A DNA stretch of 64,000 bases from a virus: positions 8,793 through 72,792 of the IMG/VR virus record IMGVR_UViG_3300007346_000025. One strand, 5' to 3'. This document shows positions 12,601-26,800 of the stretch, piece by piece (within the stretch, counting starts at the first letter, position 1; each line of letters begins with the position of its first letter). The notes under the pieces are model-generated. The model did not search any database. It saw nothing but the letters and a program-made list of their open reading frames with translations, and had not been told where the DNA came from. Made by a program: the position numbers and the translations under genes.

Positions 12601-12695
12601 CTGATCAAGATGCTCTTTCTGAAATTGAAAAACAAGCAGAAAAGAAATCTTTGAAAGACTTAGATAATGACTTATTAGATGATATAGATTGTTAG
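6660..12695 (+). CDS. giant virion ejection protein with membrane-like segments and a degenerate PD-(D/E)XK-like domain
   Basis: 2011 aa. GAAVLAPFTGGASSAAV and FASGFFMGFLGGG segments; LAGQIDLLVAD motif; syntenic with the vRNAP gene. Confidence 0.7.
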   Translation: MMEEMDLNQSLSQETNDLYSGVTDFNEYFPISPSEPPTVTNLGTQNYITGSAPGNLPSQVPKNPAYNFDDHKKAMQNYMWNFAQQNAYDPNAYGKIQSYDLGPTGNAYYRRYAASGLDVMDELGFFPTKDNEQTWNDNTSWTDDFSRMITNSFGTLFYEGVVSGPKSLSRWLQGADFFDVDPEAAMNYERASAIGYSSRKGAGAFTSNLVMNFGYTAGIISEIMLEELGAAVLAPFTGGASSAAVTANAARRLNRLSHIDMSTLRVAKGFDASMDGARQFGNVLTELNDINNARKTYEAVKTSNNMLRGEKFFSNYFVKTLNPATQTVSELYDIYRAQDNLAGFASMSRTLGAFYRDIRTINMARSESALEAGMVQNKVFEDLYNKYYAENGEVASDEEMRNMMNQAHAAGIETSMYNFPLIYATNKVTFSNLLSKGKISNYINQSIRELGEVEAGRFGKLGKVVYNQSTKQFEFWKSGLKSWWKGWRADPFYKSVGKTVGYFKANISEGIQETFQEVIADAAEKYYVETYDSDLVQKQMYKNGQLPYLNITGEYFAKGFERFNPFTTAEGLDIFASGFFMGFLGGGMDKVINNTFIRANRIVQPEKYKEYKEKKLEITRDLVNSLNGQGVSNFINSRMWDAGVQSKAAAAKRKGNKKELEDAENEAFIAHFTVLSENGVLDQYLDGLLSLNKLGDEEFIDAMDNSITAEQIPQAKQKITDIVDRAKKLESKYNYYKEKYPSPVDMKLFDPGASEDYTEAYIMNQAWEYATKQAVFYNESFENTMQRMKDIMELQYNERPVSKMTKRQSDVLFVPKLLSNEIGLLQNEIDALSELDDPASKELLKTKKKELNALIKYKEKFDSFDRYYHRGRYIEGVKEKLSKERGGVEITNEEASAYILEALGVDEATEEKELKLISELETAYKEYLRGISEVEDDYIFTDGIDTAFERLLDYYKLDNESRTLAEGINLLNDPMGYINLVERNKQWMTDLYSRRSEYYEKLVKAQLEQQENNALLNALADEGIFVSVDDFKKWIDFRIPPKEFYDQARGIVIPEGSPTYDKYYFLFERVAKLSEDTSTEIVEDTMDTALKNELGRLDLEKQAKIDSLPKMTVREDLSEVLPNRGKTMGIRRIAGQIPIGNYADATYMDQDVEEVLTFYKDSNGNLFYVVDGNVTNQVESNLAYKFTKAQVFNFAEKPDQVVVDNLEKDYEELKNAVKERYAKAKENLKQDKQAEKEKVYTPDTDLDEMPNSLKKELYELFKKEEFDKLPEEVRVNMKYNQEQNLFVKFIQSNLAAKEVIDNYNKKQKATKATAPTGEKNDFTFKFLGKEVNTKDLTAVELRSYQRRLKQTISGLTEKQRDNSITPEEKTELANAKVVSIDIEKLIKTRSKNELSPELQEAVKKVEDIEAKQENLITTELGVVVDNVVHRPVTQVTIDSTQKNAANIDAKKADVEKYKGKSKFSYTIQGNNVYLAPSLSVENNHEELKNTIFDFLNILSKNKDLKYLEGGIKRVIESSRTWYPFSVLGDYLAGRYNTTIDKVISQFKSADFTQNELDVLKYSLENRTSPYAEQTTLEQSSTTPQSTANESISFINEQLDNLFTKDTRPVFDETKISREAFDNLFGDNGIFTTLKKREENGEIYITSRNLKVYDTDLKLAGQIDLLVADTKKNLTIVKVDLRTKEQWNAFDKKNNDQLLPQTLNANLLQRMTGVAPKVALMPIEIITDKSGKITSATKPSRENLLDTEFLITLDKNLVKDQAEGIVSAVKPVPEIQPTVQMPADAQSSDDQQSPAVESEGDPVDPKDAYKSENERITSEDIAEKLKSVTTEPQLLKLKIQVNLDIAEGKILPEDIDKITEMLDNKDLSLSEEIDPKISPDNMIKGTQLVAKSLIFTDKNQTEIFAEEDDTVVITSTNKKEGTVTVQPLGKKTRLKLTRDELNNLFTEKEAVMEAKEKPTTKPDKESKANVVETLDAVDTFVADQDALSEIEKQAEKKSLKDLDNDLLDDIDC

Positions 12696-12698
12696 ACT

Positions 12699-15600
12699 AT
12701 GAAAATTACATGTGCATTAAGCCAAAATCAAATTAAGAATCTATACAGTAATGTGTATGGTAACATGCTCAGCTCATTAAAAGAAGATACTCCTTTTGAT
12801 GTTAATACATACATGGCAAGTGTATTTGATAAGATTAGCCAGAAGTCTAGTCCAGAAAATGCTGCTAAGTTTGTACAACAAATACCTAAAATGGTTTCTG
12901 TTGCTGCTAACCGTGAAGATTTATTTGACCTAGAAATTGACCTCAATGCAGTTAGAAAACTTGTAAAAGAGTTTGCTAATGAAGATACGGGAATTGAATC
13001 TGTAATGAAAAGATTTGCTCCTAAAAAATCTTCAAGTACTAAAAAAGAGTTAACAAATAAAAAAGCTAATGAAGCTTTTGATCCTACACAAACAGAGGAT
13101 AAACCTGCAGAAACAAGACCATTATCATTAAAACCTTTCTCAATCTTTAATACAAGTTATCAAGAGTTTGAGGCAATTGATCCTAAAGCAAAAGAAGAAG
13201 GATACCAAGAAGTAGCAGATGAAACTAAAGAATTTATATATACTGCACTTGGTAAAATTGCTGCAGCAAATACTGATCTTGATAATGCTATGGATACCGC
13301 ACAGTATCAAGGTAAAGAACTTAGACTTAAACCTATAGTTTTAGCTTCAGCTCCTGTTGAAATGCTTGATAAGTATTCTACAAGAATTAAAAATGTATCT
13401 ACATTTTTTAGAAACTCTAATAAGAAAAACAATAGAGTAATTCAAGCCACTGAAATTATCTTAATGGCAATTTCAGATGAACAAGGTCAACTACTCTATT
13501 TTGATAATGAAGGTAATATTGTAGATACTCCAGAACAAGGAAGAGTTGTTTATCAATTTTTAAGAAATGTAATTCAAGAGAATGGTAAATATGTAGATGT
13601 AAATATCTATGGTTATTCTAATCAAATTGCATCACCTGAAGAAATATCTAAAGCTACTGGTGTACCAGTAGAAGAAGTTGCTAAAAATCAACAAGCTGAC
13701 TTTAAAGCATTGTATGATTATAAAAAATCTATCTTAGACGGTAATATAGCACTAGCACCATTAACAGGAATTAGTGAAGGAGTTTCTCCTAAACAATCTA
13801 AACAAATTATAACATTAGCTAATATAAATCAATTTCCTTTTGGTAGTGATTCAATATTTAAATCTATTAAACCAGTTAAGACACCAAGAGGTATATTTAA
13901 AGATGGGGATACTACAATTACAATTGAAGGTACTGAATATAAAATTGATAGACCAAATGCTACAGATGACATTATTAATAAAGTAGCTGATGTATTTAGT
14001 AATCCTAATATATCTAATAAACAAAAATACAATTTCTATTTACAGTTTTTTTCAAAAAAAGCATCTCCATATACAAGAAGACATAATGTAGAATATGCTG
14101 AATCAACAGATGAATTAATTTTTACTTATTCTCCCACTACTTATGCTGAAAAATATTCTAAGTTTCAACCAATTGATAATTTAAATACTCCTGAAGCTAA
14201 AGAATTAATTGTTGATATTTTAAAAAATGCTTCTGGTACAAAAGGAAAGTACTTTTCTGCTAAGATGAATTATGATGAGACTAATTTATCTAAAAATGGT
14301 TTTCTAGATTATAACTTAGAAACAAGAACAGTAGATGAAGAATTTAGTAATTATATTGAATTACTAAAAACATTACCAAGAACTACTATATACTTTAGTG
14401 AATCTAGTGATCCTAAGAAGTTCAATGCATATATGAACTTTAGAATCCCAACTGAATTTATTAAAAATGTAGAAAAAGCTAAAGAAAATCCTGCTTTAGT
14501 AGAACCTTCTCCAACAAGAAAACAAAAAAATATTCTTGTTGATTATTTAAAAGGTCAACCTAAAATTACTCAGAATCTTAAATTAAATGTATCTGCTACC
14601 ACTAAAAAGGGAATGGAAAATATATCTAATGAAGATTCTGAAATAAAAAATATAGATGAATCTAAATTTAAGAGACTAACTAATACTAATGAAAGTGAAA
14701 ATGGATTTAGTGTTGAAGATGGTATTCTAAGAATTAGAGTTGGTGGATTAGATGTGTTTGGAAGAACTGGTGGTGCTACTCAAATAAGTTTAAAAGTACC
14801 TGAAGGATTTAATCCAAATCTTTTTGCTGAAAAACTTAAGGACATAAGTCATGAAGGAGGAATTACAACACCAGAAGCTGTAAATCAAGTTATTACTGAT
14901 ATTAAAAATGCTCTTAATCCAAATGTAACTACTGATATATCAAAGCAAGGTGTTGTAAATACTTCTGCTGCAGGCAATGAATTTGGAACTTTTAATATTA
15001 CTTCTCCAGTAACAGGAGAATCACTTGTAGTTGCATTAGATAAAAAGTTTTTTAAAGAAGCTCCTTTATTAACTGTTGGTACACCTGTTTCATTAGCATT
15101 AACAACTTCTGAAACAGAAGATATGTATATCCCAGATATTATTGAAGTTAGAAATTCTGAAGGAAAAACTATTGGTCGTGTAATGGAAACAGACTATGGT
15201 AAAAAAGAAACTCCATTAGATAATTATTATAGAGAGCTTAAGAAACAAAGAAGTAAAACTATTGAGGAAAAAATTGAAGAAAGTACTAATACAAAAGGTA
15301 CTGCTAATCCAAAAGATGGTTTAGCTGGTAAGTTTTTCTTAAGAAGTGGACATTTGCAATATGATGCAACACCTGAGCAGGTTAAAAAAGCAGATAGTTG
15401 GTGGAATACTAGTGATTTAAATAAGTATTTATCTTTTGAACAAGGAGTAGCAATTGTTAACTCAGATGCATTTGCAAGATTTATTGCTTATGGTTCTATT
15501 CTGAATGGTAAGTTAGGGATGATACAAATTGCAAATAAAGGTTCAATGGTAGATATATACCATGAAGCTTGGCATGGTTTCTCTCAGTTATTCTTAACAC

Positions 15601-18600
15601 CTGAAGAAAAAACTCGTCTTTATAAAGAGGTACAAAGAAAGTTAGGTAGAAATAAAAAACTTTCATTTTTTGATATTGAAGAAATTTTAGCAGAAGACTT
15701 TAGAACTTATGCTAAAAATCCAAAGGCTCTTGAAGATAGTCCTGAAAGAAATTCAATCTTTAGAAGAATATTAAATTTCTTAAAAGAGTTATTGGGTATA
15801 GGGTCAGTTACAAATGTAACAGATATTAAAAAAGTAAGAGAACTTTATAATAATCTTTACTTTAATGAAAATCTAAATCAATACACACCAAGTATTGATA
15901 ATGTAATGTTTGATCTTCTCAATAGAAATTCTGGACTTCAAACATTAGCAGATGAAAATATTCAAGCTTTAAATAGACAAGATGCAACCACTGTAAAAAA
16001 TTCAATGGATAGTATCATATCTAAACTTACTGATAATTTATACTCAGAAAGAAAAGAAGATATAGAGCAATTGGGTCAGAACAAATCAGCAACAACTAAA
16101 TTATTAGAAGATCCAAGAAATAGAAATGCATTGTATTCTTATATCTTTGATCAACTTGACACAAGAAGAATTGAATTACAAGATCAACTTGATAACCTTG
16201 AAGATGATACTAAAAACTTTTTAGAAAAACAAAAGTTAGAAAACAATATTAGAATTCTTACTGCTGCATTAGATAACTGGGGTAATCAATCTAATGGTAT
16301 GATTAAATACCATATAGAAAACTCAGACTTTAATCTTCTAAGAGAAAAGTTTGTAGAAATGACACCTGAACAAGAAGATGCTGTAGAAGATGTTGAAGAT
16401 ACTGATACTGAACCAACTGCTGCTGAAGATACTGAAAGAGTAGGTGATAAAAAAATTGGTGATAGATCTTTGCTTGAGTTAGCAGATAAGGAAGTAGTAT
16501 ATATTCTTAAGAGTCTATTTAAAAAAGATAGATCTGGTAAAGTAATCTTAAATGAACTTGGATTTGAAGAACTTGTAGATTTTAGAAGTACTTGGAATAA
16601 TGTTGTTAGAACTATTGGTGGTGAACAAGATCCTATTGAACAATATAAATTATTAAAGGATGCTATCAAAATTCACCCGGAGTTTGAACAGTTGGTAAAT
16701 TTTAAATTAGCAGATCCTAATCCAGACTCTGAAAATGCATCTAATAATTTATATGAAGCTAAAGCTACTACAGCATTTTGGCAAACATTTAGTAAACCAA
16801 GAGTACCACTTTTACAAAGCACTATTTTTACAAATGGTATAACTCAAATTACAGAAGCTTCAATTGAAGCTGTAGATATATTAAGAGGTTTTGAAAATAA
16901 ATTTAAAGCTGATATTAATAATGCATATATTATAAGAAGGAATGAAGATAATGTTCCTATGCTTGCACTCCAAGCATTAGTAGAAGATTTTTCAGATAAA
17001 AATGGTAATCTTGATGATACTAAATACTATGAGTTTGCAAGAAGATTAGGTATATATCTTGATGATATTACTATAATTAAAAGAGCACTTACAAAGAATC
17101 AAAAAGCAGCAGAAGAATATGGTCTTCCTTACATTTTTAAAACAGTAAAAAAAGTTGCTGATTTAGAAGTAAATCCAAATGCCACTGAAAAGCAATTAAA
17201 ATTTGTTGAAGATTTTAAGAAAAATCCTATTTTCTATTTAAGAACACAAATTCCTGCAGGAATAATATCTAATAAAGAAGAAACTCAGAAATATGCACTT
17301 AAAAAATTAGCAGAATTACAATCAAAATATGGATTAGATACTTCTAATTTTGGGGTACTTAATGCAGAAGGTAATACAGTATATGAACTTATTGAAAAGA
17401 GTACAGCAAGTAAAATTGCTTATGCTATAAATAAAGCTGAAAAACTTTCTGATCTATGGAATTCTAGTACTCTTAAATACATGAGTTATTTAAATCCAGC
17501 TATTAATACATTTACAAATAACTCTAGATTTCTTAAAACAATCTTTGACTTTAATGATCCTGAGTTTACTAAAAGATCTGATAAAGAATTAGAATTATTT
17601 CTTTCTTCTGGTACTCAACAAATTGTTAATGAGGAATTCGGAATAAAAGATGGAAATAACACAACTTCATTAGATACAACTAGTAAGTTTCTTCAAGAAA
17701 TGAACTCTATGCTTAAAGCTGGTGTACAAGAATTCATTCGTCATGCATCTAAAAGTTCTGCATTTGGATTAAGAGTTAGCGGTGATATTATTGGTAGACC
17801 TGGTAAACTAGATAGTGATCCTAGACTTTGGATTGATATAGATATGTTTGCTGATAATACTGCTGACTCATATGCATTAAAGACACATATTGTACCTTAT
17901 ATTGCAACTGAAGCCAATAGAATTTATAAGTTTAAACAAAATAGAACTGAATTTGAAAAATATCAAGGATATAATAATGAAACTCCTAGTGGTAAAATGG
18001 CTGGAGAAGTATTTACTGCATTTGATAATGTATTAAGACCTTCAACTAAACAAGCAATATATTCAGCAATTGATAATGCAATACTTAATAAAGAATACTT
18101 TGATTTTATTTCTTTTATTAAAACTGATCAAACAGGATTAGCTGATAAAATTAGAACTGATGTATTAGATTATTTTAATGAACTAACTGAAGAAAACTAT
18201 AATATACTTCAGGAGACCAATTATATTAGTCCTGATATAATCAATAGACTTAAAAAATTTAATTTATCAAAAGAAGAACAAGATAAATTACTTACTAGAG
18301 CTTATACATTTAACTCTTGGATACATAATTTTGAAACTATCAATCTTATGTATGGAGATATGGCACAGTATAATCATATTAAAGAAGAGTTACATAAAAG
18401 AAATACTGGTTTAACTTCAACAGGTAGATCTTTTAGAACAGACATAGCTGCTCAGAATTTAGTTAAAGGAGCACTTAGAAAAAATTCTTATGCTGAGAAA
18501 AAAGGATTTAACTATGTAGAATATGATGGTACACTTAATACAGCTATCATTCAAGATATAGAAAGATCATCTGTTTACTTACCAGTTATTGAAAAAGCTT

Positions 18601-21600
18601 TAATTGAAGATTATACAAATAAGCTTAAAGAAACAATAAAGGATCCTGCTAAACTTACTGAAGCTGTAGAATATAGAGTTAAGAAGGACTTAGATGCCTA
18701 CAAGAAAATGGTAGAAGGTGATGGTCAAGGGTGGGTTACTTTTGATACTTATAGAATTCTTAAGAATCTAGAGAATGCTTGGTCATATGAGCAAGAAGAA
18801 TTATTTACTAAAATAACTGATGGAGAATTTGTCTCTCCTACAGAAATTATTCAAATGTTCCCAGTATATAAAATACAAAACTTTGGCCACTTAGCTAATA
18901 CAGGATTGCCTGTAAATGCTATGCATAAGTTTGCACTTGCTCCATTAATACCATCTATGATTGAAGGATCAGATCTTCAGTCTTTACATGAACAAATGAT
19001 GGCAAATAACATTCAGTATGTTACATTTCAGTCTGGTTCAAAAGTTGGTTCTGTTACTTCAGAAAAAGATTCTAAAGGTAAAGCAGCAGCAGACATCATT
19101 TATAAAGATGATGAAATGAAAAATCTCAATAGAGATATTAATTTTACTCCAAACACTATTTACGTAGATTATCTTAAAAATGTTACAAATGTAAATAGCT
19201 CATATAAAGAAAAAGCAACATTCTCCACACAGTTAAGAAAATTAATCTTGGGGTCAATGTATCGTGAAGGTAAAATCATTAATCCCAATAATGAAGCAAC
19301 TGTAAAAGAATATGAAAAAACTGTTGATGAGTACACTAAACTTTTAAAATTTGAGTTACTTAATGAAATTGGGTATGAAGAAGTAGACGGTAAGTATATT
19401 GGTAATCTTACAAACTTTTTAGATTTAGTTCAAAGAGAGTTAGGTAGAAGAAAATTACCAGAACACCATATTGAATTTGTTGGTCAAAATCTAGATAGCA
19501 CATTAAAGACTGATTTATCATTACACTTAAGAGCTGATGATATAGAAAAAATTCTAGTTAGTCTTATTGAAAAAAGATTTATTAAACAAAAAGTAAAAGG
19601 TGAAGCTTTAGTACAAGTATCCAGTGCTATGACAAATGGAATCTGGTCCACACCAACATTTAAAAAAGCAACAGCTGAAGAAATTAGAAAGTATATTGGC
19701 ACTAATAACTTACCTTTCTATAATCCAAGTAAAGATGGTACTTCAGCAATGAAAGTAGCAATTGCTTTACAGGGAGACTTTATAAAATTATTGAGAAGAA
19801 AAGATGTTGCAGTAATTGACACTGTTGATGGAAAAAGAACTCTTAATAAAAAAGCTAGTCTTGCTAAGTTAAATCAACTTATAAAAGATGAAGCATGGTT
19901 AGAAAATAATAGAGATTTAATTAGAATGTCTGCTGTACGTATTCCAGTACAGGGTCTTAACTCTATGGAGTTCATGGAAGTCTATGAATTCTTAGATCCT
20001 GCAGCAAGTAATATTATTATTACACCAACAGAAATTGTTGCTAAATCAGGATCTGACTTTGACGTTGATAAACTCATCACTTTTATGCCTAATATAGATA
20101 ATAGAGGTATGTTTATTAAATCTGGTATGTCTGAAGAACAATTCCAAGATTTTGTAAAAAGAAATAAAAACAATAAAGATAGAGTAAAAGAAACAATTAA
20201 AACTCAAAAATCTGCTCTTGAAAATAAACTTATTACAACTATTAATAATATTCTTGCATTACCAGATAACTATGCAAATCTTGTAAGGCCTAACTCTACA
20301 TATCTACTTAAAGATATTGCAGATAAACTTCAAGATTTTGTATCTGAGTATGATAGATTTAAAAATAAACTTGGTCAGGAATATGTAACAATAACTGATA
20401 AAGAAGATAAAAAAGTAAAAGTTATTAGTCCTACAAGAACACTTGAAACTGGATACAATCTTCATAAACATGATGTAAACTTAACTGGTAAGAAAGTATT
20501 AGGTATTACAGCTATTGAGAATTCATTAAATCCTATTCTTAATTCTTTGGGTGCAGCAATGCCAAAAACATATAAGCATTCTTATTATGATAATGCTATA
20601 AAGAAATGGGTAGAAACTGATACAACTTATAATACCAACTTGTATTTGCCACATAGAAAAATGGCAGATGGTAGAATTTCTCTTTCACATACTGAAAGCT
20701 TAGATGGAGATTCAATTTCTGATGTTCTATCACAAATGATGAATGGTCTAGTTGACGTAGAAAAAGATGCATGGATATTCTTTATACAGGCTAATTTAGA
20801 AATTGCTCCTACTTTATTGTATTTAATTAAAGCAGGTGTACCAAAAGAACATGCAATCATGTTTGTTTCTAATCCCCTTGTTAGAGATTATGCTAAAAAT
20901 AAAAGGCTTTACAATAGTGCTTATTCTGAATTATCAGGTAGAAAACTTGATGATAAATCTTATGCTCAATACCAAGCTGCTACAGATGTAATCATTAGTC
21001 AACTTCCAACACTTATTGAAGATCAGTTATCTAATATTAGAGATACTGAAACTATATATGTAAGAACAGGACGTTTTAATCCATACTTACAAGAAATGGA
21101 GTATGAAGATATTCCAATGACTAAGTTGCAACTAATTCAAAAAGTAAAAGACAAAAATTTTGCTGAGTCATTTATTAATGTGCGTAAGGATAGTAAGAAA
21201 GGTGGGATTATATTTAATAAACCATCTATAAGTAATAAAAAGTATTACTTAGACACTAAGTTCTATACTCAAGCATATATAAATAAAAATAAAGAGTTTG
21301 ACTTAGATCTTATGAAAAGAGTTATTCTTGATCCAAAGTCTTCAAAATATAGAGGAGCAGCAATGGCTATGTTTATGCACTTTATAGAAATTGAAAAACA
21401 AATCCGTGGTCTCCAAACATTAAAAAGACTTGCTAATCCAGATACTAGAACTTCTAAAACATTAGAAGAAGTAATTAGAAGAGGTGTATCACTTGAAGAA
21501 CTTAAAGAACTTTCTAAAGTAGATCCTGAGTTAGTAAGAAAATTAGTTGAAGAATCAATTCTTGGAAGCTTCTTTGATAATAAACTCATTGGAGAATTAG

Positions 21601-23789
21601 TAAAACCATTGTTTCCACTAAGAAATAATGATAAGGTTACTAATTATGTAATTGCATTGCTTCAAACAAAAGCAGGATCTCTAGTTAAAAAATATGGTAC
21701 TGGTCCTGAAGCAACAAGAGCATTTATTTCAGAATATAAAAACTCTATTGTAAACTATGTCTTCCAAAACTATATGTCAAACTTTATTGACGGTAAAGGA
21801 AACATAGTAAATGTTCCTACAGAGTATAAAGAAATGCCTGTAAAAATTAAAAAAGGAATTAAGAATGGAGCTCAAGTAGTTGATAATGTTGTCTATATAG
21901 ATGAAGCTAGAATTTCTAAAGACTATGCTGAAAAATTATTTGCAGCAGAATCTGAAGCAGAAAATAGCTATAGAGCCCGTGGTCTTAGACCATTTAGAGC
22001 AGCAGAAAATGTTTTTCCAACTGAATCTAGCTTCTTTAAATATGTAGTAGAAAGAGAGTATCAAAGATCTATGATACCTTTAGAAAAAGCATTGGAAAAT
22101 AAAACATTTAAATATCTTAGAAATGTACTTAAATCATCTATTAAAGATGTTAAAACATTAAATGAACAAACTTATGAGGCATTTTTAAATCAAAGAGCTA
22201 TGATCTTTGCATTTAATAGAGAAGCTCTTATGAAAACTATTAACTATTCTTATTCAGATCAGTTAATGGCATTAATTAGAGAATTCTCACAACTCAAAGA
22301 TAAGTACCCAATATTAAATCAACTTACTAAACCTGCACTTAAAACAGGTGAAAAAGTAATCTCATTAAATGACTCCAGAATGTTAAAAGATCCACAGCTT
22401 GCTGAGATCTATTATCAGAACATTAAAGATCTTGGGGATCCTACAGTTAAAAAAGTAGCTTTAGAATCAGACAATGAAAGAATAAGTGAGATGTTTGGTA
22501 TACTTCCATTAGTAGCTGTCTACCAACACGGTATTGGTTATAGCAGATTTGGATTTAATGAAGCACTTCCTTATGATAAATTCTTAGAAGTAATGGATTC
22601 TGCATCAAAGATATTCTTAGAAAAACAACTTAATAATGCTACTCTAGGAAATATCTATTTAAAGCTAATGGATCCTAAGAATAAATTATTTAAAGACTTT
22701 GTGGTTTCTCCAAAAGACTTTAATAATCCTACAGAAGAAACATTAGAACCTGAAGTTACAAATGAAGAGGTTGATGTTGAAGAAGAGGTTATTACTACAC
22801 CATCAACTCAATTAGATTCTGAAAATACAATTAATATCTATGCAGGTACAGGAGAGAATGCTGAGTTAAGTAATTTTGCTGTAAGACCTTTTTCTCCAGT
22901 TATTGATGGAGTAGAATTAGGCCAATTTAACACTGTTGAGGGAGCATTTCAAGCAATGAAAATACTTAACTACTCAAGTGATAGACAAGTACAGACTGAT
23001 AAATATAAAGCATTAAAAACAGCTACTGGTGCAAATGCTAAAGCTATAGGTCAAAAGGTTACTGGTTTAGACAAAAAATCTTGGGATAAAAATTCTTCTA
23101 GAATTATGAAAGAATTATTATTACAATCATTCCAACAAAATCCAGACGTTCTTGCTAAACTTCTTGCTACAGGTAATGCTACTCTCACTCATGTAGGTAC
23201 TGAAAAACCTAATAGATGGACTACAGAGTTTCCTAGATTACTAATGGAAGTAAGAGAAGAACTAGGTGGTACTCAACCTACAGAAATAAATCAAAAAATA
23301 AAAGATATTATTGATAAAAGTAATTTAGAAAAAGATGAATATGAAGTAGTATTAGTTAATGGTGTTCAAACTTTTGTTGATTTAAGATTAATGCCAGAAA
23401 GCATTAAAAAAGGATATGGTGTATACTATTCTTTACAGAAAGATGGTTTACTTAAAAGAGCGGGTAAAAAAATAATAGTTCCTGGATATGAAGATATACA
23501 ACTAATATATGATCAACTTGATGGTTCAATAATAGAATTAAGCACAGGATTGTTAATTCCAACACAAGAAAAAACACAAAGTAAAGTTATAAATGAATTA
23601 CAGGATATGTTTGAATTTAGAAATATTAGACTCGTATTAGAAAAATCTGATAAAATAACTGCTAATGAACCTAATACTGTTATCTCAAGTTTGGAAGGTC
23701 TATCTACTCAACCTACTCAAGAAGAATCTAAGAAAAATGCACCGGAAGGTCTACCTCCAATTGACAGATCTATAGACTCTTGTAGTTAA
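12699..23789 (+). CDS. virion-packaged double-psi beta-barrel RNA polymerase (crAss-like, phi14:2 gp66 type) with zincin and NADAR domains
   Basis: 3696 aa. RIPVQGLNSM (about 19938); catalytic GSDFDVD (DFDVD at 20055-20069); DGQG and HKFA motifs; HEAWH zincin motif (15561-15575); NADAR-like domain at about 22830-23265. Confidence 0.9.
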   Translation: MKITCALSQNQIKNLYSNVYGNMLSSLKEDTPFDVNTYMASVFDKISQKSSPENAAKFVQQIPKMVSVAANREDLFDLEIDLNAVRKLVKEFANEDTGIESVMKRFAPKKSSSTKKELTNKKANEAFDPTQTEDKPAETRPLSLKPFSIFNTSYQEFEAIDPKAKEEGYQEVADETKEFIYTALGKIAAANTDLDNAMDTAQYQGKELRLKPIVLASAPVEMLDKYSTRIKNVSTFFRNSNKKNNRVIQATEIILMAISDEQGQLLYFDNEGNIVDTPEQGRVVYQFLRNVIQENGKYVDVNIYGYSNQIASPEEISKATGVPVEEVAKNQQADFKALYDYKKSILDGNIALAPLTGISEGVSPKQSKQIITLANINQFPFGSDSIFKSIKPVKTPRGIFKDGDTTITIEGTEYKIDRPNATDDIINKVADVFSNPNISNKQKYNFYLQFFSKKASPYTRRHNVEYAESTDELIFTYSPTTYAEKYSKFQPIDNLNTPEAKELIVDILKNASGTKGKYFSAKMNYDETNLSKNGFLDYNLETRTVDEEFSNYIELLKTLPRTTIYFSESSDPKKFNAYMNFRIPTEFIKNVEKAKENPALVEPSPTRKQKNILVDYLKGQPKITQNLKLNVSATTKKGMENISNEDSEIKNIDESKFKRLTNTNESENGFSVEDGILRIRVGGLDVFGRTGGATQISLKVPEGFNPNLFAEKLKDISHEGGITTPEAVNQVITDIKNALNPNVTTDISKQGVVNTSAAGNEFGTFNITSPVTGESLVVALDKKFFKEAPLLTVGTPVSLALTTSETEDMYIPDIIEVRNSEGKTIGRVMETDYGKKETPLDNYYRELKKQRSKTIEEKIEESTNTKGTANPKDGLAGKFFLRSGHLQYDATPEQVKKADSWWNTSDLNKYLSFEQGVAIVNSDAFARFIAYGSILNGKLGMIQIANKGSMVDIYHEAWHGFSQLFLTPEEKTRLYKEVQRKLGRNKKLSFFDIEEILAEDFRTYAKNPKALEDSPERNSIFRRILNFLKELLGIGSVTNVTDIKKVRELYNNLYFNENLNQYTPSIDNVMFDLLNRNSGLQTLADENIQALNRQDATTVKNSMDSIISKLTDNLYSERKEDIEQLGQNKSATTKLLEDPRNRNALYSYIFDQLDTRRIELQDQLDNLEDDTKNFLEKQKLENNIRILTAALDNWGNQSNGMIKYHIENSDFNLLREKFVEMTPEQEDAVEDVEDTDTEPTAAEDTERVGDKKIGDRSLLELADKEVVYILKSLFKKDRSGKVILNELGFEELVDFRSTWNNVVRTIGGEQDPIEQYKLLKDAIKIHPEFEQLVNFKLADPNPDSENASNNLYEAKATTAFWQTFSKPRVPLLQSTIFTNGITQITEASIEAVDILRGFENKFKADINNAYIIRRNEDNVPMLALQALVEDFSDKNGNLDDTKYYEFARRLGIYLDDITIIKRALTKNQKAAEEYGLPYIFKTVKKVADLEVNPNATEKQLKFVEDFKKNPIFYLRTQIPAGIISNKEETQKYALKKLAELQSKYGLDTSNFGVLNAEGNTVYELIEKSTASKIAYAINKAEKLSDLWNSSTLKYMSYLNPAINTFTNNSRFLKTIFDFNDPEFTKRSDKELELFLSSGTQQIVNEEFGIKDGNNTTSLDTTSKFLQEMNSMLKAGVQEFIRHASKSSAFGLRVSGDIIGRPGKLDSDPRLWIDIDMFADNTADSYALKTHIVPYIATEANRIYKFKQNRTEFEKYQGYNNETPSGKMAGEVFTAFDNVLRPSTKQAIYSAIDNAILNKEYFDFISFIKTDQTGLADKIRTDVLDYFNELTEENYNILQETNYISPDIINRLKKFNLSKEEQDKLLTRAYTFNSWIHNFETINLMYGDMAQYNHIKEELHKRNTGLTSTGRSFRTDIAAQNLVKGALRKNSYAEKKGFNYVEYDGTLNTAIIQDIERSSVYLPVIEKALIEDYTNKLKETIKDPAKLTEAVEYRVKKDLDAYKKMVEGDGQGWVTFDTYRILKNLENAWSYEQEELFTKITDGEFVSPTEIIQMFPVYKIQNFGHLANTGLPVNAMHKFALAPLIPSMIEGSDLQSLHEQMMANNIQYVTFQSGSKVGSVTSEKDSKGKAAADIIYKDDEMKNLNRDINFTPNTIYVDYLKNVTNVNSSYKEKATFSTQLRKLILGSMYREGKIINPNNEATVKEYEKTVDEYTKLLKFELLNEIGYEEVDGKYIGNLTNFLDLVQRELGRRKLPEHHIEFVGQNLDSTLKTDLSLHLRADDIEKILVSLIEKRFIKQKVKGEALVQVSSAMTNGIWSTPTFKKATAEEIRKYIGTNNLPFYNPSKDGTSAMKVAIALQGDFIKLLRRKDVAVIDTVDGKRTLNKKASLAKLNQLIKDEAWLENNRDLIRMSAVRIPVQGLNSMEFMEVYEFLDPAASNIIITPTEIVAKSGSDFDVDKLITFMPNIDNRGMFIKSGMSEEQFQDFVKRNKNNKDRVKETIKTQKSALENKLITTINNILALPDNYANLVRPNSTYLLKDIADKLQDFVSEYDRFKNKLGQEYVTITDKEDKKVKVISPTRTLETGYNLHKHDVNLTGKKVLGITAIENSLNPILNSLGAAMPKTYKHSYYDNAIKKWVETDTTYNTNLYLPHRKMADGRISLSHTESLDGDSISDVLSQMMNGLVDVEKDAWIFFIQANLEIAPTLLYLIKAGVPKEHAIMFVSNPLVRDYAKNKRLYNSAYSELSGRKLDDKSYAQYQAATDVIISQLPTLIEDQLSNIRDTETIYVRTGRFNPYLQEMEYEDIPMTKLQLIQKVKDKNFAESFINVRKDSKKGGIIFNKPSISNKKYYLDTKFYTQAYINKNKEFDLDLMKRVILDPKSSKYRGAAMAMFMHFIEIEKQIRGLQTLKRLANPDTRTSKTLEEVIRRGVSLEELKELSKVDPELVRKLVEESILGSFFDNKLIGELVKPLFPLRNNDKVTNYVIALLQTKAGSLVKKYGTGPEATRAFISEYKNSIVNYVFQNYMSNFIDGKGNIVNVPTEYKEMPVKIKKGIKNGAQVVDNVVYIDEARISKDYAEKLFAAESEAENSYRARGLRPFRAAENVFPTESSFFKYVVEREYQRSMIPLEKALENKTFKYLRNVLKSSIKDVKTLNEQTYEAFLNQRAMIFAFNREALMKTINYSYSDQLMALIREFSQLKDKYPILNQLTKPALKTGEKVISLNDSRMLKDPQLAEIYYQNIKDLGDPTVKKVALESDNERISEMFGILPLVAVYQHGIGYSRFGFNEALPYDKFLEVMDSASKIFLEKQLNNATLGNIYLKLMDPKNKLFKDFVVSPKDFNNPTEETLEPEVTNEEVDVEEEVITTPSTQLDSENTINIYAGTGENAELSNFAVRPFSPVIDGVELGQFNTVEGAFQAMKILNYSSDRQVQTDKYKALKTATGANAKAIGQKVTGLDKKSWDKNSSRIMKELLLQSFQQNPDVLAKLLATGNATLTHVGTEKPNRWTTEFPRLLMEVREELGGTQPTEINQKIKDIIDKSNLEKDEYEVVLVNGVQTFVDLRLMPESIKKGYGVYYSLQKDGLLKRAGKKIIVPGYEDIQLIYDQLDGSIIELSTGLLIPTQEKTQSKVINELQDMFEFRNIRLVLEKSDKITANEPNTVISSLEGLSTQPTQEESKKNAPEGLPPIDRSIDSCS

Positions 23790-23794
23790 AAATT

Positions 23795-23807
23795 CGTATA
23801 TTTATAT
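23795..23807 (+). promoter_or_regulatory. putative late promoter GTATATTTATATA
   Basis: A similar motif recurs upstream of + strand genes at about 3475, 47966, 61351, 62000 and 63766. Confidence 0.5.
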
Positions 23808-23819
23808 AAATAAGAAACA

Positions 23820-26800
23820 ATGCCTTGTAAGACTCAAATAAAAAACAAACTAACCGATCAAGTATATGATCTCGCACAACCTGGTTTAGGTATGTCTCAA
23901 GCTAATGCTAATGCACTTGCTGCTGATATAAATAGAAGTTTTGGTACACAGGTGGTTAGATTTAATAGTTATGTTACAGATGATCTTCTTGAAATGGATA
24001 TTAATATCCCGCAAAGTTTAATAGATGTTTACTATGATAATGAACTTATATTAGAAGCAAAAGAACTAGAACAAAGCATTGAAGATGCAAGAAGAGCTCA
24101 ACAAGAAGATGCTGCTCGTTCAGGTGTAGAATATACAGATCAGTATTTATTTGATAATTCTTCTGCGGTAGAGGTAGCACTCTCCAGAGAAGGTATTGAA
24201 AGAAGGAGAGATATACAAATAGCAGAAGCACTTGGTGAGAAATATAGTAAAGCATTTAATATTCCTTATCAAATTATTACTGAGGGTCAAGCTATAGAAA
24301 TTTTATCTGAAAGCCCAACACCATATAAAGGTAATATGTCTTCTTTTTTCTATGGGGACATAGTATACTTTGTTGAAGGTAAGTTTAAAGCCGGTAATGT
24401 AGTGCATGAGTATGCACACCCTTTAGTAAAAGGTATTCAGTTTCAGAACCCAAAGTTATTTGATAACTTATTTAATCAACTTAGTTTAAGTGAAACCGGA
24501 AAAAGAGCTTTACAGATTGTAAAAGAAAGATATCCTGAACTTGGAACAGACACGGTAAGATTTAAAGAAGAAGCCATTGTTACTGGAATAGAATTAGATT
24601 CTAATAAAAAACTGGATGAGACTATCAAAGATGATAATTTATTCCAAAGATTCATTACTAATGTAATGGCAGCTATTAAAAAAGTTTTAAGGGCTTTATC
24701 CACTAAAGTAAATCTTAAATCTTTGGATTCTACCACTACTAGAGATGAATTAGTTGATATGCTATTAGATGAAGACTTTGTAATTGAAGATTTAGAATAT
24801 CAATTGTCTTTACTTCCAGAGTTTAAAAAAGAAGCTGAAAGTTTTCTAAATGATCTAGAAAAAGCTAAGAGTAAGGAACTTCTAACTGTAATTGATAGAT
24901 ACTATGATAATGTTAACTTTCAACTTAATAAATTACGTAAGTCTCCTGATCAAGTAAAAAGTTTATTAGAAGGAAAAGTTGGAGAAGATATTTTAAAAAA
25001 TATTGAATCTTTTCTATCCCCATATATTGTAAGAAGTAAAAACTTAACAGCTGAGGAAGTTGAAGAAATTATCAATGCTATTGAAGAGAGTGAAGAAGAT
25101 ACTAGACTTAGAGCAATTGCATTTGTAAACAGTTTAGCTGAATCACAAGTTTATGCTGAAAGAATTAATAATGCCTTAGAAAAATTAGTTAGTACAAAAA
25201 GACACCTAACACCAGAAGGAATTACCCAGGTAATTTACTATAAAGATATGTTGTCTGGACAATTTGCATTTTTTGAAGAAGCTGTAAAACAGTTAAATAT
25301 TCCAAGAGATAGTTCTATTATTCAAAAAATTCTTTCTGTAAAACAAGTTATCAAAGATGATCTAGAAGAAATAAATGAGATAATGTTTGATTTTTCTAAA
25401 GATTTAATGAATGATGCTACTAAAAATATGCAGGAAAATTTAAATGCAGAATTTAAAGATAGGATAACTCAAATACTTAAAGCAGACGGTTTTAAAGAGG
25501 CTGATATAAATAAATTTTTAAACTCTGTTATTGATCTGATTGATATAAATAATAAAAAAGATTTTAAGGAAAGTGAACTTAATGCTTTACTTCCAAAAGC
25601 TTCTCCAAGAATAAGGTATATATTGAGAGCTGTAAAAAAATATGTAACAAAACATATTACACCAGATGTTATTCAAGATTTTCTTACAGGATATACACAA
25701 GATATTGGTCAAATTGGTTCTAGTTTGGTTCCACTTGGTAATATTGATGATGTATTAGGTGCTGTATTTAACTTTATGAAAGATAGAGCTGCAGATACAG
25801 ATGTAGAATCTCAACGTCAGTTAAATCAAATGGCTGATAGTTTATATCCATTCTTAGAAAAAGTAGGTTGGAATCCAAATAAAACTACTCAGCTTGGTGA
25901 CCTTTTATTATTTAAGGATACTGTTAAATTAGAAAGAAATGGTGAGTTAGTTGAAAAAGAAGTATACTCTTTTATTGATAAGTTTAAAAACTATAGAGCT
26001 GATAAAACCCAATTAGAGTATGATCTTAAAAGAGCTAGAGAATTAAAGGATCAAGAACTTATTGATAGAGCAACTGAAGCTTTATGGGATTTTCATGAAA
26101 AATATATGCATAGAACTTTTACTCCTGAAGTGTATAAAGTTTTAAATATGTTTAAACAAGAAAATACTGTTATACATCCAGAAACAGGTGAAGTTTTAAC
26201 GGTATCTAAAGAACTTTCTATGGAAGCATACCGAGAAAGAAAGAAAGCTTTAGAAACTTTAAATACTCAGAATAAAAGAGACTTTACAGAACTTGATGAT
26301 TTGTTTGATTACAATGAAGCTAGTGTAGCTAAAATACAGTATGAAGAACTATATAGTGTTATTGAACCAACAACCGGTGAATACAAACAAGGTGATGAAT
26401 TAAAAAAAGTATTACTTAGAATTAAGTATAGAAATGATTCTAGAAAATTCTATGACTTTGATGTAAACTATGATAGAGTTCAAAGAGATCTAGATAATTT
26501 TATTAATGTAAGACTTGCAGCTAGAGGTATTACTCTTGATGCTACACCAGAAAGATTTCAAGCAGAGTTAGATAGATATCTACGTAAAAATTTTAGAGTT
26601 GCATACACTGAAGAATATTATAAAGAATTAACAGCAATTTTTAATGAAATAGCTAGAATTAATGCTAAAGCTTCTGAATCAGATGTATCTAAAAAACTTG
26701 CTAGTTTATATGATCAAAGAAAAACATATGTAAATATGGTTACTGATAAAGATGGAGAACCTAATGCTCTTAATCTTGACAGAGTTCAAATTGATCAAGT

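What the first reader, a model, noticed from the sequence alone, without database searches (positions are those of the whole stretch)
12690..23828. Possible head-to-tail disulfide chain linking the three giant ejection proteins
Seen: reading the translations by eye, the 2011-, 3696- and 1957-aa proteins (7,664 aa) have only four Cys. These are the last residue of protein A (...DIDC, 12690), residue 5 of the vRNAP (MKITC, 12711), the penultimate residue of the vRNAP (...DSCS, 23781) and residue 3 of protein C (MPC, 23826). The outer ends (N-terminus of A, C-terminus of C) and the upstream 1053-aa cargo protein have none. The Cys therefore sit only at the two gene-order junctions. Established: crAss-like cargo proteins, including the vRNAP, are ejected through the tail. 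Inference: A-S-S-vRNAP-S-S-C forms a redox-reversible covalent train that sets ejection order and stoichiometry and is released in the reducing cytoplasm. Metal bridging or lipidation of these Cys are alternatives.
Basis: partly seen in the sequence, partly recalled or inferred. Interest (0 to 1): 0.88.

Follow-up and report, generated by a model that had tools for sequence, protein, structure and literature searches.

The report
Cysteine-tipped junctions chain crAss cargo proteins
Three giant proteins that this crAss-like phage packs for injection, with its RNA polymerase in the middle, contain no cysteine except one at each end that faces the next protein; relatives keep this rule wherever the genes are split and drop it where they are fused, which points to untested end-to-end disulfide links.

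Summary
Observation confirmed exactly. Proteins A (2011 aa), vRNAP (3696 aa) and C (1957 aa) hold 4 Cys in 7,664 residues, at A-2011, vRNAP-5, vRNAP-3695 and C-3. The window's other ORFs carry 1.05% Cys, so about 80 were expected.

The rule holds across Crassvirales. In the window plus 80 IMG/VR relatives, 75 of 75 complete vRNAP C-termini carry a Cys within 10 residues. 41 of 41 split vRNAPs have an N-terminal Cys, against 0 of 24 without a true split (22 fused with A, 2 frameshift-broken). 0 of 62 outer C-termini have one. Extra gene splits gain a Cys pair. A break caused by a group I intron has none.

phi14:2, crAss001 and crAss002 follow the rule, and crAss001's A homologue is not even adjacent to its vRNAP.

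A solved precedent exists. Cyanophage A4 gp27 Cys1715 and gp26 Cys5, each the protein's only Cys, form a disulfide in the pre-ejectosome.

A complex model docks A's C-terminus on the vRNAP N-terminus (0.76, best control 0.31).

The pairing logic is strongly supported. The disulfide chemistry and the "ejection train" role are untested. This scan has noted the same pattern before on other DNA. I found no paper describing it for crassviruses.

The parts
87..1163 (+). 358-aa ORF with 0 Cys (upstream neighbour, possible cargo or structural protein)
   Evidence: no Pfam or PHROG match
3502..6663 (+). 1053-aa Cys-free protein upstream of A (position of the small cargo proteins of crAss-like phages); no terminal Cys
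   Evidence: no family match
6660..12695 (+). Protein A, 2011 aa, first link of the chain; its sole Cys is the last residue
   Evidence: its N-terminal domain (residues 111-590) recurs at the N-terminus of fused A+vRNAP ORFs and of crAss001 gp47
12540..12692 (+). C-terminal about 50 residues of A (1961-2011), predicted to dock on the vRNAP N-terminus
   Evidence: interface residues 70-120 of the 120-aa piece; in the 27-row alignment A2 the terminal Cys is the only invariant column
12690..12692 (+). TGT codon of A Cys2011 (C-terminal cap)
12699..23789 (+). Virion RNA polymerase (vRNAP), 3696 aa; Cys only at residues 5 and 3695
   Evidence: tblastn to crAss-like RNAPs including phi14:2 g066; DFDxD core alignment
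12711..12713 (+). TGT codon of vRNAP Cys5 (N-terminal cap)
12699..12995 (+). vRNAP residues 1-99, predicted docking surface for the C-terminus of A
   Evidence: interface residues 1-25 and 42-99
15375..15914 (+). 'H domain' (vRNAP residues 893-1072, HEAWH motif at 15561-15575); in crAss001 it lies at the C-terminal end of gp47, so the A|vRNAP break sits at a different homologous position
20055..20069 (+). DFDVD catalytic motif of the two-barrel RNAP
22857..23192 (+). NADAR domain inside the vRNAP C-terminal region (residues 3387-3498)
   Evidence: PF08719, E 7e-13, above cut-off
23781..23783 (+). TGT codon of vRNAP Cys3695 (C-terminal cap, penultimate residue)
23820..29693 (+). Protein C, 1957 aa, last link; sole Cys at residue 3; HEYAH motif (24405-24419), LysM (28761-28874), one hydrophobic segment (about 29211-29276)
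   Evidence: homology to crAss001 gp49 and cr118_1 gp15
23826..23828 (+). TGT codon of C Cys3 (N-terminal cap)

Best explanation
The block A - vRNAP - C is the conserved RNA-polymerase cargo block of crAss-like phages (phi14:2 g067-g066-g065). These proteins are packed in the capsid and ejected into the host. Like other podovirus ejection proteins, they are purged of cysteine.

The only Cys left sit within a few residues of each terminus that faces the next protein. I call them a 'C-cap' on the upstream protein and an 'N-cap' on the downstream one.

Most likely, the C-terminal helices of one protein dock on the N-terminal segment of the next. The two caps then form an inter-protein disulfide once the particle is in oxidising surroundings. 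The separately translated proteins thereby become one unbranched, polyprotein-like chain, A-S-S-vRNAP-S-S-C, equivalent to the single fused polypeptide that other crassviruses encode.

Because the Cys are at the extreme ends and there are no internal Cys, the joint stays thread-like and no wrong cross-link can form. This would suit passage of partly unfolded cargo through the tail channel. In the reducing cytoplasm the links could open.

Shown here: the sequence rule, its conservation, and its covariation with gene fission and fusion.
Shown elsewhere: an identical signature forms a disulfide in phage A4.
Inferred: that the crassvirus caps form disulfides, when they form, and what the chain is for (co-packaging in fixed proportion, ordered ejection, or release).
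For: (1) Window. There are 4 Cys in 7,664 aa, all within 5 residues of the inner termini. About 80 were expected, P(<=4) is 2e-29 and the placement P is 4e-12.

(2) Close relatives at 75-81% identity keep the same four caps and no other Cys.

(3) Named crassviruses at about 22% core identity keep the pattern. In phi14:2, g067 ends ..TIC, g066 is MAC....ECK and g065 is MSC. In crAss001, gp47 has its Cys 3 residues from the end although the gene lies on the opposite strand and is not adjacent to gp50; gp50 is MSKRC... with Cys2404 of 2412; gp49 is MAKKC. In crAss002, gp32 has a Cys at 2019 of 2020, and gp33 has M-S-C 32 codons inside its annotated start.

(4) Survey of the window plus 80 IMG/VR loci, which are the best 80 of 454 confirmed relatives at 22-58% core identity. 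Of 199 boundaries between adjacent + strand ORFs of at least 150 aa, 123 have both caps, 57 have neither and 19 are discordant. In one search, 75 of 75 complete vRNAP C-termini are capped. The next ORF is N-capped in 71 of 75 directly and in 4 of 75 after a small inserted ORF. Of 41 N-capped vRNAPs, 39 have a C-capped upstream protein. 0 of 62 outer C-termini have a Cys, and 1 of 11 complete outer N-termini of A does (a start miscall).

(5) Fusion. ORFs that carry A's N-terminal domain, the H domain and DFDxD in one chain have no N-cap and no Cys at the former junction. The N-cap is present in 41 of 41 split forms. It is absent in all 24 forms without a true split (22 fused, 2 frameshift-broken).

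(6) The break moves and the Cys move with it. DFDxD lies about 1400, 1700 or 2150-2830 residues from the capped N-terminus in different clades. The H domain is in the vRNAP here but in gp47 of crAss001.

(7) New splits gain pairs. Free-standing modules of 170-1167 aa carry Cys at both ends. The same module, when fused to the vRNAP C-terminus (L011, L019) or to the N-terminus of C (L012), has no Cys at the fused side.

(8) Negative control. In cr108_1 the vRNAP is interrupted inside DFDxD by a group I intron (RF00028, 80 bits), and the two exon ORFs have no caps there. Two frameshift-broken fused genes, L068 and L085, also lack caps.

(9) Selection acts on the amino acid. Both TGT (196) and TGC (33) are used. 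In A2 the Cys is the only invariant column.

(10) Precedent. The cryo-EM structure of cyanopodophage A4 shows a disulfide between gp27 Cys1715 and gp26 Cys5, with gp27's C-terminal helix inserted in gp26 (PMC12002296, passages read). In the A-4L record these are the sole Cys of a 1717-aa and a 1114-aa protein encoded side by side.

(11) crAss001 virions do contain inter-subunit disulfides, in the tail and in gp57 (PMC10172136, passages read).

(12) Complex model of A's last 120 aa with the vRNAP's first 330 aa, using my own 27-row alignments. The score is 0.76 and the best of 3 controls is 0.31. That mark was reached by 58 of 80 solved complexes and 2 of 110 mismatched pairs. The runs agree in at least 46% of contacts and the partner's pLDDT is at least 60. 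The interface includes vRNAP residues 1-18 and A's last four residues. The model supports binding but does not show it.
Against: There is no direct evidence of a disulfide in any crassvirus cargo protein. Neither of the two crassvirus papers searched by term (Bayfield 2023; the Drobysheva 2020 preprint) mentions cargo Cys.

Assembly takes place in a reducing cytoplasm, so the time and place of oxidation are unknown. No thioredoxin or Erv1-type oxidase was found in the 72.8-kb record, which is only 61% complete.

The caps look generic. In the window both N-caps are followed by Q-I-K-N and both C-caps have I-D near the Cys. Partner specificity, and hence a fixed order, is therefore not shown. 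The vRNAP could in principle cyclise or polymerise.

There are exceptions. In L052 the upstream Cys lies 19 residues from the end, and in L050 no capped upstream partner was found. The six named genomes examined (five gut phages and marine phi14:2) carry more internal Cys than the IMG/VR set: cr118_1 gp14 has 4, crAss002 gp33 has 6, cr4_1 gp26 has 6 and cr108_1 gp052 has 4.

The phylogenetically independent test is underpowered. It gives 4 of 4 pairs in the predicted direction, sign test p = 0.125.

The complex model does not list Cys5 with Cys2011 among its most confident contacts. If fused polyproteins are cleaved after assembly, as Drobysheva et al. suggested, covalent continuity would not be essential in those phages.
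Confidence: 0.68

Rival explanations
1. The caps do form a disulfide, or at least a clasp, but only as a static brace of a packed pre-ejectosome or cargo body inside the capsid, as described for A4 gp27-gp26. They would fix proportion and packing. The proteins would not leave as a covalently linked train, and the link would have no role in ordering ejection.
For: The only solved example, A4, is a ring of alternating gp27 and gp26 in the pre-ejectosome, and its authors describe the bond as stabilising. The crAss001 cargo sits in a defined capsid zone. Generic-looking caps argue against a strictly ordered chain.
Against: The caps lie at the extreme termini (36 of 124 C-caps are the very last residue and N-caps lie at residues 3-8). 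Internal Cys are almost absent (38 in 458,856 residues of capped giant proteins). Both are what an unbranched thread needs and are not required for a static brace. Fused single-chain forms replace the caps, so continuity of the chain seems to be the selected property.
Confidence: 0.2
2. The two facing Cys bind a shared metal ion such as Zn, Cu(I) or Fe, instead of forming a disulfide. The result would be a non-covalent, metal-bridged clasp between consecutive proteins.
For: Pairing across junctions fits any two-partner link. Metal sites can form in the reducing cytoplasm, where disulfides cannot.
Against: Only one Cys per terminus is conserved. No His, Asp or second Cys is conserved beside it (logo; the sole invariant column). 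That is too few ligands for a usual Zn site. The A4 structure shows a disulfide for the same signature.
Confidence: 0.07
3. The terminal Cys serve something other than linking neighbours. Possibilities are attachment to another virion part (portal, capsid interior, DNA), acylation, or a processing or ligation signal.
For: Nothing specific. The chemistry is untested, and the similar-looking caps within one phage could be read as recognition by one common partner.
Against: The numbers of C-caps and N-caps always balance. Outer ends are never capped (0 of 62 outer C-termini and 0 of 24 N-termini of vRNAP ORFs without a true split). A fusion removes both caps at once. No hydrophobic signal segment precedes the N-cap Cys, which lies at residue 3-8. 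Pfam finds no Hint or intein domain in A, vRNAP or C.
Confidence: 0.04
4. The pattern is a by-product of DNA-level signals at gene junctions (coupling, promoters, recombination sites), or of shared ancestry and chance.
For: All three window genes are in the same frame, and A's stop is one codon from the vRNAP start. Many rows of the survey are related to one another.
Against: crAss001 gp47 keeps its cap although it is on the other strand, away from gp50. Caps persist across inserted ORFs (L036, L049, L050, L070). Gene spacing varies from -13 to +68 nt. Both Cys codons are used. The fused/split state changes at least 4-5 times on the tree, and the N-cap follows each time.
Confidence: 0.01

Closest known systems
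Cyanopodophage A4 (Anabaena phage A-4L) pre-ejectosome pair gp27-gp26, with a Cys1715-Cys5 disulfide (PNAS 2025, PMC12002296)
   Same: Both are ejection proteins encoded side by side, each otherwise free of Cys. One Cys lies 3 residues from the upstream C-terminus and one at residue 5 of the downstream protein. Cryo-EM shows them disulfide-bonded, with the C-terminal helix of one inserted in the other. The model for the window's A|vRNAP junction also pairs C-terminal helices with the N-terminal segment.
   Different: No sequence similarity to the crAss block was found with phmmer or my three HMMs. A4 has a single link between two proteins in a pentameric ring. It has no RNA polymerase, no chain of three to five links and no described evolutionary rule. 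For crassviruses the bond itself is unobserved.
RNA-polymerase cargo block of Crassvirales: phi14:2 g067-g066-g065, crAss001 gp47/gp50/gp49 (Drobysheva 2020 preprint and 2021 paper; Bayfield 2023)
   Same: It has the DFDxD two-barrel vRNAP core, the same gene order, an HExxH protein downstream and Cys-free small cargo genes upstream. The same terminal-Cys pattern is present in the published genomes.
   Different: The window's vRNAP carries about 1000 extra N-terminal residues that lie in the A homologue of crAss001, plus a NADAR domain. Neither the Bayfield 2023 text nor the Drobysheva preprint mentions these Cys. The preprint supposes that fused forms are cleaved.
Cysteine suppression in podovirus ejection proteins (Schitoviridae N4 gp50/51/52 and DEV gp71-73; T7 gp15/gp16)
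   Same: These are giant ejected proteins, including a vRNAP, with essentially no Cys. N4 gp50, gp51 and gp52 have 0 Cys, and so do T7 gp15 and gp16. The DEV paper reports 0.00075% Cys in gp71 homologues and relates this to passage through the periplasm (PMC11445570, passages read).
   Different: N4-type vRNAP is one polypeptide of a different fold family and has no terminal Cys. There the rule is simply 'no Cys'. Here it is 'no Cys except at facing termini'.
Polyvalent proteins of phages and conjugative elements (Iyer et al. 2017; recalled, not read here)
   Same: Both are giant multi-domain proteins delivered with the DNA that carry effector-type domains. The window's vRNAP holds NADAR. A capped 328-aa link in L069 holds the Pfam domain 'ART-PolyVal'.
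   Different: Polyvalent proteins are single polypeptides. Here the domains are spread over several proteins that appear to be joined end to end after translation.

Membership tests
Crassvirales vRNAP cargo block (phi14:2 g067-g066-g065 type) | Two-barrel RNAP core with DFDxD motif, homologous to phi14:2 gp66 | tested here: met
   DFDVD at vRNAP residue 2453. tblastn hits 73 phage records, all crAss-like, including phi14:2 g066 at E 3e-15. blastp to phi14:2 gp66 gives 21% identity over 945 aa at E 8e-24. The core alignment A1 has an invariant D-F-D-x-D.
Crassvirales vRNAP cargo block (phi14:2 g067-g066-g065 type) | Gene order: giant protein A, then vRNAP, then an HExxH-bearing protein C, followed by oppositely oriented replication genes | tested here: met
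   ORF map. phi14:2 annotation. W_C matches crAss001 gp49 and cr118_1 gp15. HEYAH at C residue 196. DNA polymerase, nuclease and helicases lie on the minus strand.
Crassvirales vRNAP cargo block (phi14:2 g067-g066-g065 type) | The proteins are present in virions and ejected | not testable with these tools
   Known by MS for phi14:2 and crAss001. Inferred for this uncultured phage by homology.
A4-type head-to-tail disulfide between consecutive ejection proteins | Sole Cys near the C-terminus of the upstream protein and near the N-terminus of the downstream one; proteins otherwise Cys-free | tested here: met
   for the window; for A-4L gp27 (Cys1715 of 1717) and gp26 (Cys5).
A4-type head-to-tail disulfide between consecutive ejection proteins | The C-terminal helix of one protein docks into the N-terminal part of the next | tested here: inconclusive
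   The complex model scores 0.76 against a best control of 0.31. That mark was reached by 58 of 80 solved complexes and 2 of 110 mismatched pairs. Contact agreement is at least 46% and partner pLDDT is at least 60. This is a prediction, made for the A|vRNAP junction only.
A4-type head-to-tail disulfide between consecutive ejection proteins | A disulfide bond physically present in the virion | not testable with these tools
   Needs non-reducing gels, MS or cryo-EM of a cultured crassvirus.
A4-type head-to-tail disulfide between consecutive ejection proteins | Sequence homology to A4 gp27/gp26 | tested here: not met
   phmmer of A4 gp26-gp29 against 300-odd proteins of the survey, and three HMMs against the A4 proteins, gave no hit at E <= 0.01 to 0.1. 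The resemblance is therefore of mechanism, not of family.
Cys-suppressed ejection proteins (Schitoviridae/T7 type) | Cys frequency far below the proteome average in proteins that pass the envelope | tested here: met
   0.05% against 1.05% in the window. Internal Cys are 0.0083% in 191 capped giant proteins. N4 and T7 comparison.
Split inteins / protein trans-splicing | Hint (intein) domain halves at the facing termini | tested here: not met
   No Pfam match other than NADAR/Phage_30_3 (vRNAP) and LysM (C) in A, vRNAP and C. The Cys lie 0-8 residues from the ends, which leaves no room for intein halves.
Bacterial lipoproteins (lipobox Cys) | A signal peptide with a hydrophobic core before the Cys | tested here: not met
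   The N-cap Cys is residue 3-8 in 124 of 124 capped junctions. There is no hydrophobic window in A or the vRNAP, and only one, near its C-terminus, in C.

The most novel reading that the evidence does not exclude
Terminal Cys caps are a general, evolvable coupling device of podophage ejection systems. Any cargo gene can be split, shuffled or newly inserted (for example ADP-ribosyltransferase-like or NADAR modules), provided each new terminus carries a cap. The phage then rebuilds one unbranched, redox-releasable protein thread after translation. That thread is threaded through the tail in a fixed order and falls apart into active enzymes only in the reducing cytoplasm. Crassviruses and cyanophage A4 would have reached this independently.
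Probability: 0.35. Interest if true: 0.9.

Novelty: new variant of a known kind. Interest (0 to 1): 0.78.

Why it matters
Crassviruses are the most abundant phages of the human gut, and how they deliver about 0.7 MDa of cargo protein, including the polymerase that starts infection, is an open question. Bayfield 2023 and the 2026 N4 paper both say the cargo is unresolved.

A rule that can be read from sequence alone says which proteins are joined, in what order and by which residues. The question then becomes directly testable with non-reducing gels, with re-analysis of existing reduced and non-reduced MS data, and with point mutants.

It also gives annotators a practical marker. The caps identify true starts (crAss002 gp33). 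They separate real gene splits from introns and frameshifts. They flag small unknown ORFs as ejected cargo.

If the chain is real, it would be a multi-link, redox-switched substitute for a polyprotein.

Tried and rejected
- tblastn of protein C against the phage collection gave no match.
- PHROGs gave nothing for A, C or the 1053-aa protein.
- Pfam gave nothing for 9 of the 10 capped linker proteins.
- Searches of the window's own 72.8-kb record for thioredoxin (PF00085) and Erv1/Alr (PF04777) found nothing. The Erv1 control rang in no control genome and the record is 61% complete, so this says little.
- The final Nature version of Drobysheva et al. (PMC12127119) is not held. I read passages of the preprint only.
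- The independent-pairs test gave 4 of 4 in the predicted direction but cannot reach significance (p = 0.125).
- None of the listed titles concerns terminal Cys of crassvirus cargo. This holds only for the library searched.
- Rejected: intein, lipoprotein, DNA-signal and chance readings (see membership tests and rivals).
- I did not use the search for homologous proteins, the search of protein representatives, structure prediction, read mapping or the protein atlas.

Rows dropped:
- One search used only + strand ORFs of at least 150 aa and removed ORFs that overlap a longer one by more than 100 nt.
- One search left 20 of 84 rows unlabelled. These are vRNAP ORFs open at the 5' end or without a DFDxD regex hit, plus L068 and L085, which are fused genes broken by a frameshift.
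- One search's set of 191 proteins was chosen for having a cap. Its terminal count is therefore circular, and only its internal Cys frequency is informative.
- The 80 loci are the best 80 of 454 confirmed relatives, so they lean towards environmental relatives of the window. Gut families are represented only by five named genomes (crAss001, cr118_1, crAss002, cr4_1, cr108_1); the sixth named genome, phi14:2, is marine.

Full report
**What is there**

The + strand of the window carries 358-, 762-, 1053-, 2011-, 3696- and 1957-aa ORFs, followed by oppositely oriented replication genes. The 3696-aa protein is a crAss-like virion RNA polymerase. A 2000-aa piece hits 73 phage records, all crAss-like, at 21-27% identity, including phi14:2 g066. 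It also carries the DFDVD motif. It has a NADAR domain near its C-terminus as well. The 1957-aa protein has an HExxH motif, a LysM domain and one hydrophobic segment, and it matches crAss001 gp49. The window is part of a 72.8-kb IMG/VR virus record judged 61% complete.

**The observation**

A has one Cys, its last residue. The vRNAP has two, at residues 5 and 3695 of 3696. C has one, at residue 3. The 1053-aa and 358-aa proteins have none.

The window's other ORFs average 1.045% Cys, so about 80 were expected in the three giants (binomial P of 4 or fewer is 2e-29). The placement of four Cys, one in each inner 5-residue end, has a probability of about 4e-12. TGY triplets number 4 in the coding frame and 84 and 444 in the other two frames. 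The depletion therefore acts on the protein.

**Conservation**

Relatives at 75-81% identity have the same four caps and nothing else, even though one vRNAP is 410 residues shorter.

At about 22% core identity, the published crassviruses behave the same way.
- phi14:2: g067 ends in Cys, g066 has Cys3 and a penultimate Cys, and g065 has Cys3. None has any other Cys.
- crAss001: gp47 has Cys2339 of 2341, gp50 has Cys5 and Cys2404 of 2412 plus one internal Cys, and gp49 has Cys5.
- crAss001 gp47 is encoded on the opposite strand, away from gp50. The Cys therefore cannot be a by-product of a junction DNA signal.
- crAss002: gp32 has its only Cys at 2019 of 2020. gp33 has M-S-C 32 codons inside its annotated start, which suggests the annotated start is too early.

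**Survey**

An alignment of the DFDxD core retrieved 80 IMG/VR loci, the best 80 of 454 confirmed relatives, at 22-58% identity.

Over the window plus these loci there are 199 boundaries between adjacent + strand ORFs of at least 150 aa. Of these, 123 have a Cys in the last 8 residues upstream and in the first 8 downstream, 57 have neither, and 19 are discordant. Most discordant cases are explained by one of the following:
- small inserted ORFs between two capped partners (L036, L049, L050, L070);
- start miscalls (L041, L046, L065);
- a Cys 9 or 19 residues from the end (L069, L052);
- an unrelated Cys-rich gene downstream of C.

With a 10-residue limit:
- 75 of 75 complete vRNAP C-termini are capped;
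- 71 of 75 next ORFs are capped directly, and 4 of 75 after an insert;
- 39 of 41 N-capped vRNAPs have a capped upstream protein;
- 0 of 62 outer C-termini have a Cys;
- 1 of 11 complete outer N-termini of A has a Cys (a start miscall).

In 191 capped proteins of at least 900 aa there are 38 internal Cys in 458,856 residues, or 0.0083%. That set was chosen for having caps, so only the internal figure is informative.

**Fusion, fission and moving breaks**

HMMs for A's N-terminal domain and for an 'H domain' (vRNAP residues 893-1072) show that the 3,750-4,870-aa ORFs of many loci are true A+vRNAP fusions. Among the 65 vRNAP ORFs with a complete N-terminus in the window plus 80 loci, 24 lack an N-cap. 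Of these, 22 are fused and 2 (L068, L085) are fused genes broken by a frameshift. None has a Cys where other lineages are split. All 41 split forms are capped.

The break lies at different homologous positions in different clades. DFDxD is about 1400, about 1700 or 2150-2830 residues from the capped N-terminus. The H domain is inside the vRNAP here but at the end of gp47 in crAss001.

On a FastTree of the core, the fused/split state changes at least 5 times (4 on well-supported branches), and the N-cap follows in 4 of 4 independent pairs. That is too few for the sign test (p = 0.125).

Downstream of the vRNAP, extra links of 170-1167 aa carry a Cys at both ends. The same module has no Cys at the fused side when it is fused to the vRNAP (L011, L019) or to C (L012). 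One such link has an ART-PolyVal domain.

There is also a natural negative control. In cr108_1 a group I intron (RF00028, 80 bits) interrupts the DFDxD motif, and the two exon ORFs have no caps at that break, while the true junction further on has both.

Only the Cys is conserved in the caps, and both Cys codons are used.

**What it most likely is**

Cys suppression is known for ejected proteins of N4-like phages and has been linked to passage through the oxidising periplasm (PMC11445570, passages). I confirmed 0 Cys in N4 gp50, gp51 and gp52 and in T7 gp15 and gp16. Against that background, Cys kept only at facing termini implies a function in joining neighbours.

In cyanopodophage A4 the cryo-EM structure shows a disulfide between gp27 Cys1715 and gp26 Cys5, with gp27's C-terminal helix inserted in gp26 (PMC12002296, passages). 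In the A-4L genome these are the only Cys of two adjacent ejection proteins of 1717 and 1114 aa. I found no sequence homology to the crAss block, so the likeness is one of mechanism.

crAss001 virions are known to hold inter-subunit disulfides in the tail.

I ran a complex model of A's last 120 residues with the vRNAP's first 330, using my own alignments. It scored 0.76 against a best control of 0.31. That mark was reached by 58 of 80 solved complexes and 2 of 110 mismatched pairs. The runs agree in at least 46% of contacts and the partner's pLDDT is at least 60. Both cap regions lie in the interface. This supports docking but does not show it.

**Mechanism proposed**

Shown here or in print: the rule, its covariation with gene structure, and the A4 bond.

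Inferred: consecutive proteins dock tail to head, and the caps oxidise to a disulfide in the particle. The result is an unbranched chain equivalent to the fused polyprotein of other crassviruses. Terminal placement and the absence of internal Cys keep it thread-like for passage through the tail. Reduction in the cytoplasm could free the enzymes.

**What speaks against it**

- No bond has been observed in a crassvirus.
- Assembly takes place in a reducing cytoplasm.
- The caps look generic within one phage, so the order of the chain is not proven.
- The named genomes examined (mostly gut phages) tolerate more internal Cys.
- There are two unexplained exceptions, L050 and L052.
- If fused forms are cleaved, as suggested in the preprint, continuity would not be essential.

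**Novelty**

The library searches and the passages read in Bayfield 2023, the Drobysheva preprint and the 2026 N4 paper gave no description of terminal Cys in crassvirus cargo. The kind of bond is known from A4. The multi-link chain around a vRNAP and its fission/fusion rule appear to be new. This scan has recorded the same pattern before in at least 138 other genomes. I tested the rule independently here.

**Verdict**

Confidence in end-to-end disulfide links is about 0.68. Interest is 0.78.

Noticed in passing
window 1153-3441 (Cys-rich part about 2446-2637): The 762-aa ORF sits between Cys-free proteins and holds 12 Cys. All lie within residues 432-495, in near-repeats of the form G-C-P-C-E-D-G-T-Y-S-E-E-C-C-P-D-T. 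It has no Pfam or PHROG match. It could be a metal-binding or disulfide-knotted structural insert.
   Followed up: partly
window 22857-23192: A NADAR domain (PF08719, E 7e-13) is embedded near the C-terminus of the vRNAP. It is a possible ejected ADP-ribose-processing effector riding on the polymerase.
   Followed up: no
window 15561-15575 and 24405-24419: There are two HExxH motifs in the chain. HEAWH lies in the vRNAP N-terminal 'H domain', which was found in the cargo-block proteins of 63 of the 84 records examined. HEYAH lies in protein C. The role of the first is unknown.
   Followed up: partly
window 6660-29693: A, vRNAP and C are all in the same reading frame. A's TAG stop is separated from the vRNAP ATG by a single codon. 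The vRNAP-C spacer has an in-frame TAA, so read-through could join A and the vRNAP at most.
   Followed up: no
L093 15787-16105 (cr108_1): A group I intron (RF00028, 80 bits, E 1e-20) splits the vRNAP gene inside the DFDxD motif. The record annotates the two exons as separate hypothetical proteins.
   Followed up: yes
L091 11256-11360 (crAss002 gp33): The annotated start lies 32 codons upstream of an ATG that gives M-S-C. The cap rule suggests that the downstream ATG is the true start. gp33 appears to be a vRNAP+C fusion of 4245 aa.
   Followed up: partly
L069 14680-15663: A 328-aa protein capped with Cys at both ends (residues 3 and 325) lies between the vRNAP and C. It carries an ART-PolyVal ADP-ribosyltransferase-like domain (PF18760, E 1e-10), which makes it a candidate ejected effector.
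   Followed up: partly
L068 about 7930-8110; L085 about 9533-9573: Fused A+vRNAP genes are broken by a frame change. In L068 the second frame is open across the end of the first. L085's core is identical to that of the intact L083. These could be assembly errors or real frameshifts. Neither break has Cys caps.
   Followed up: partly
L092 (cr4_1) 958-23874: The annotated cargo genes contain many in-frame stops under table 11 (38 in gp26, 18 in gp27). This is consistent with the stop-codon reassignment reported for some crassviruses. The caps are still present (..NCKGK and MIC..).
   Followed up: no
window 38978-40159 (- strand): This 393-aa protein has DUF2201 metallopeptidase-like and VWA-like domains (Pfam). 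PHROGs labels its family 'HNH endonuclease', so the two libraries disagree on the name.
   Followed up: no
L090 5729-6319 (T7 gene 14): T7 gp14 has a single Cys, at residue 2, while gp15 and gp16 have none. No capped partner was seen.
   Followed up: no
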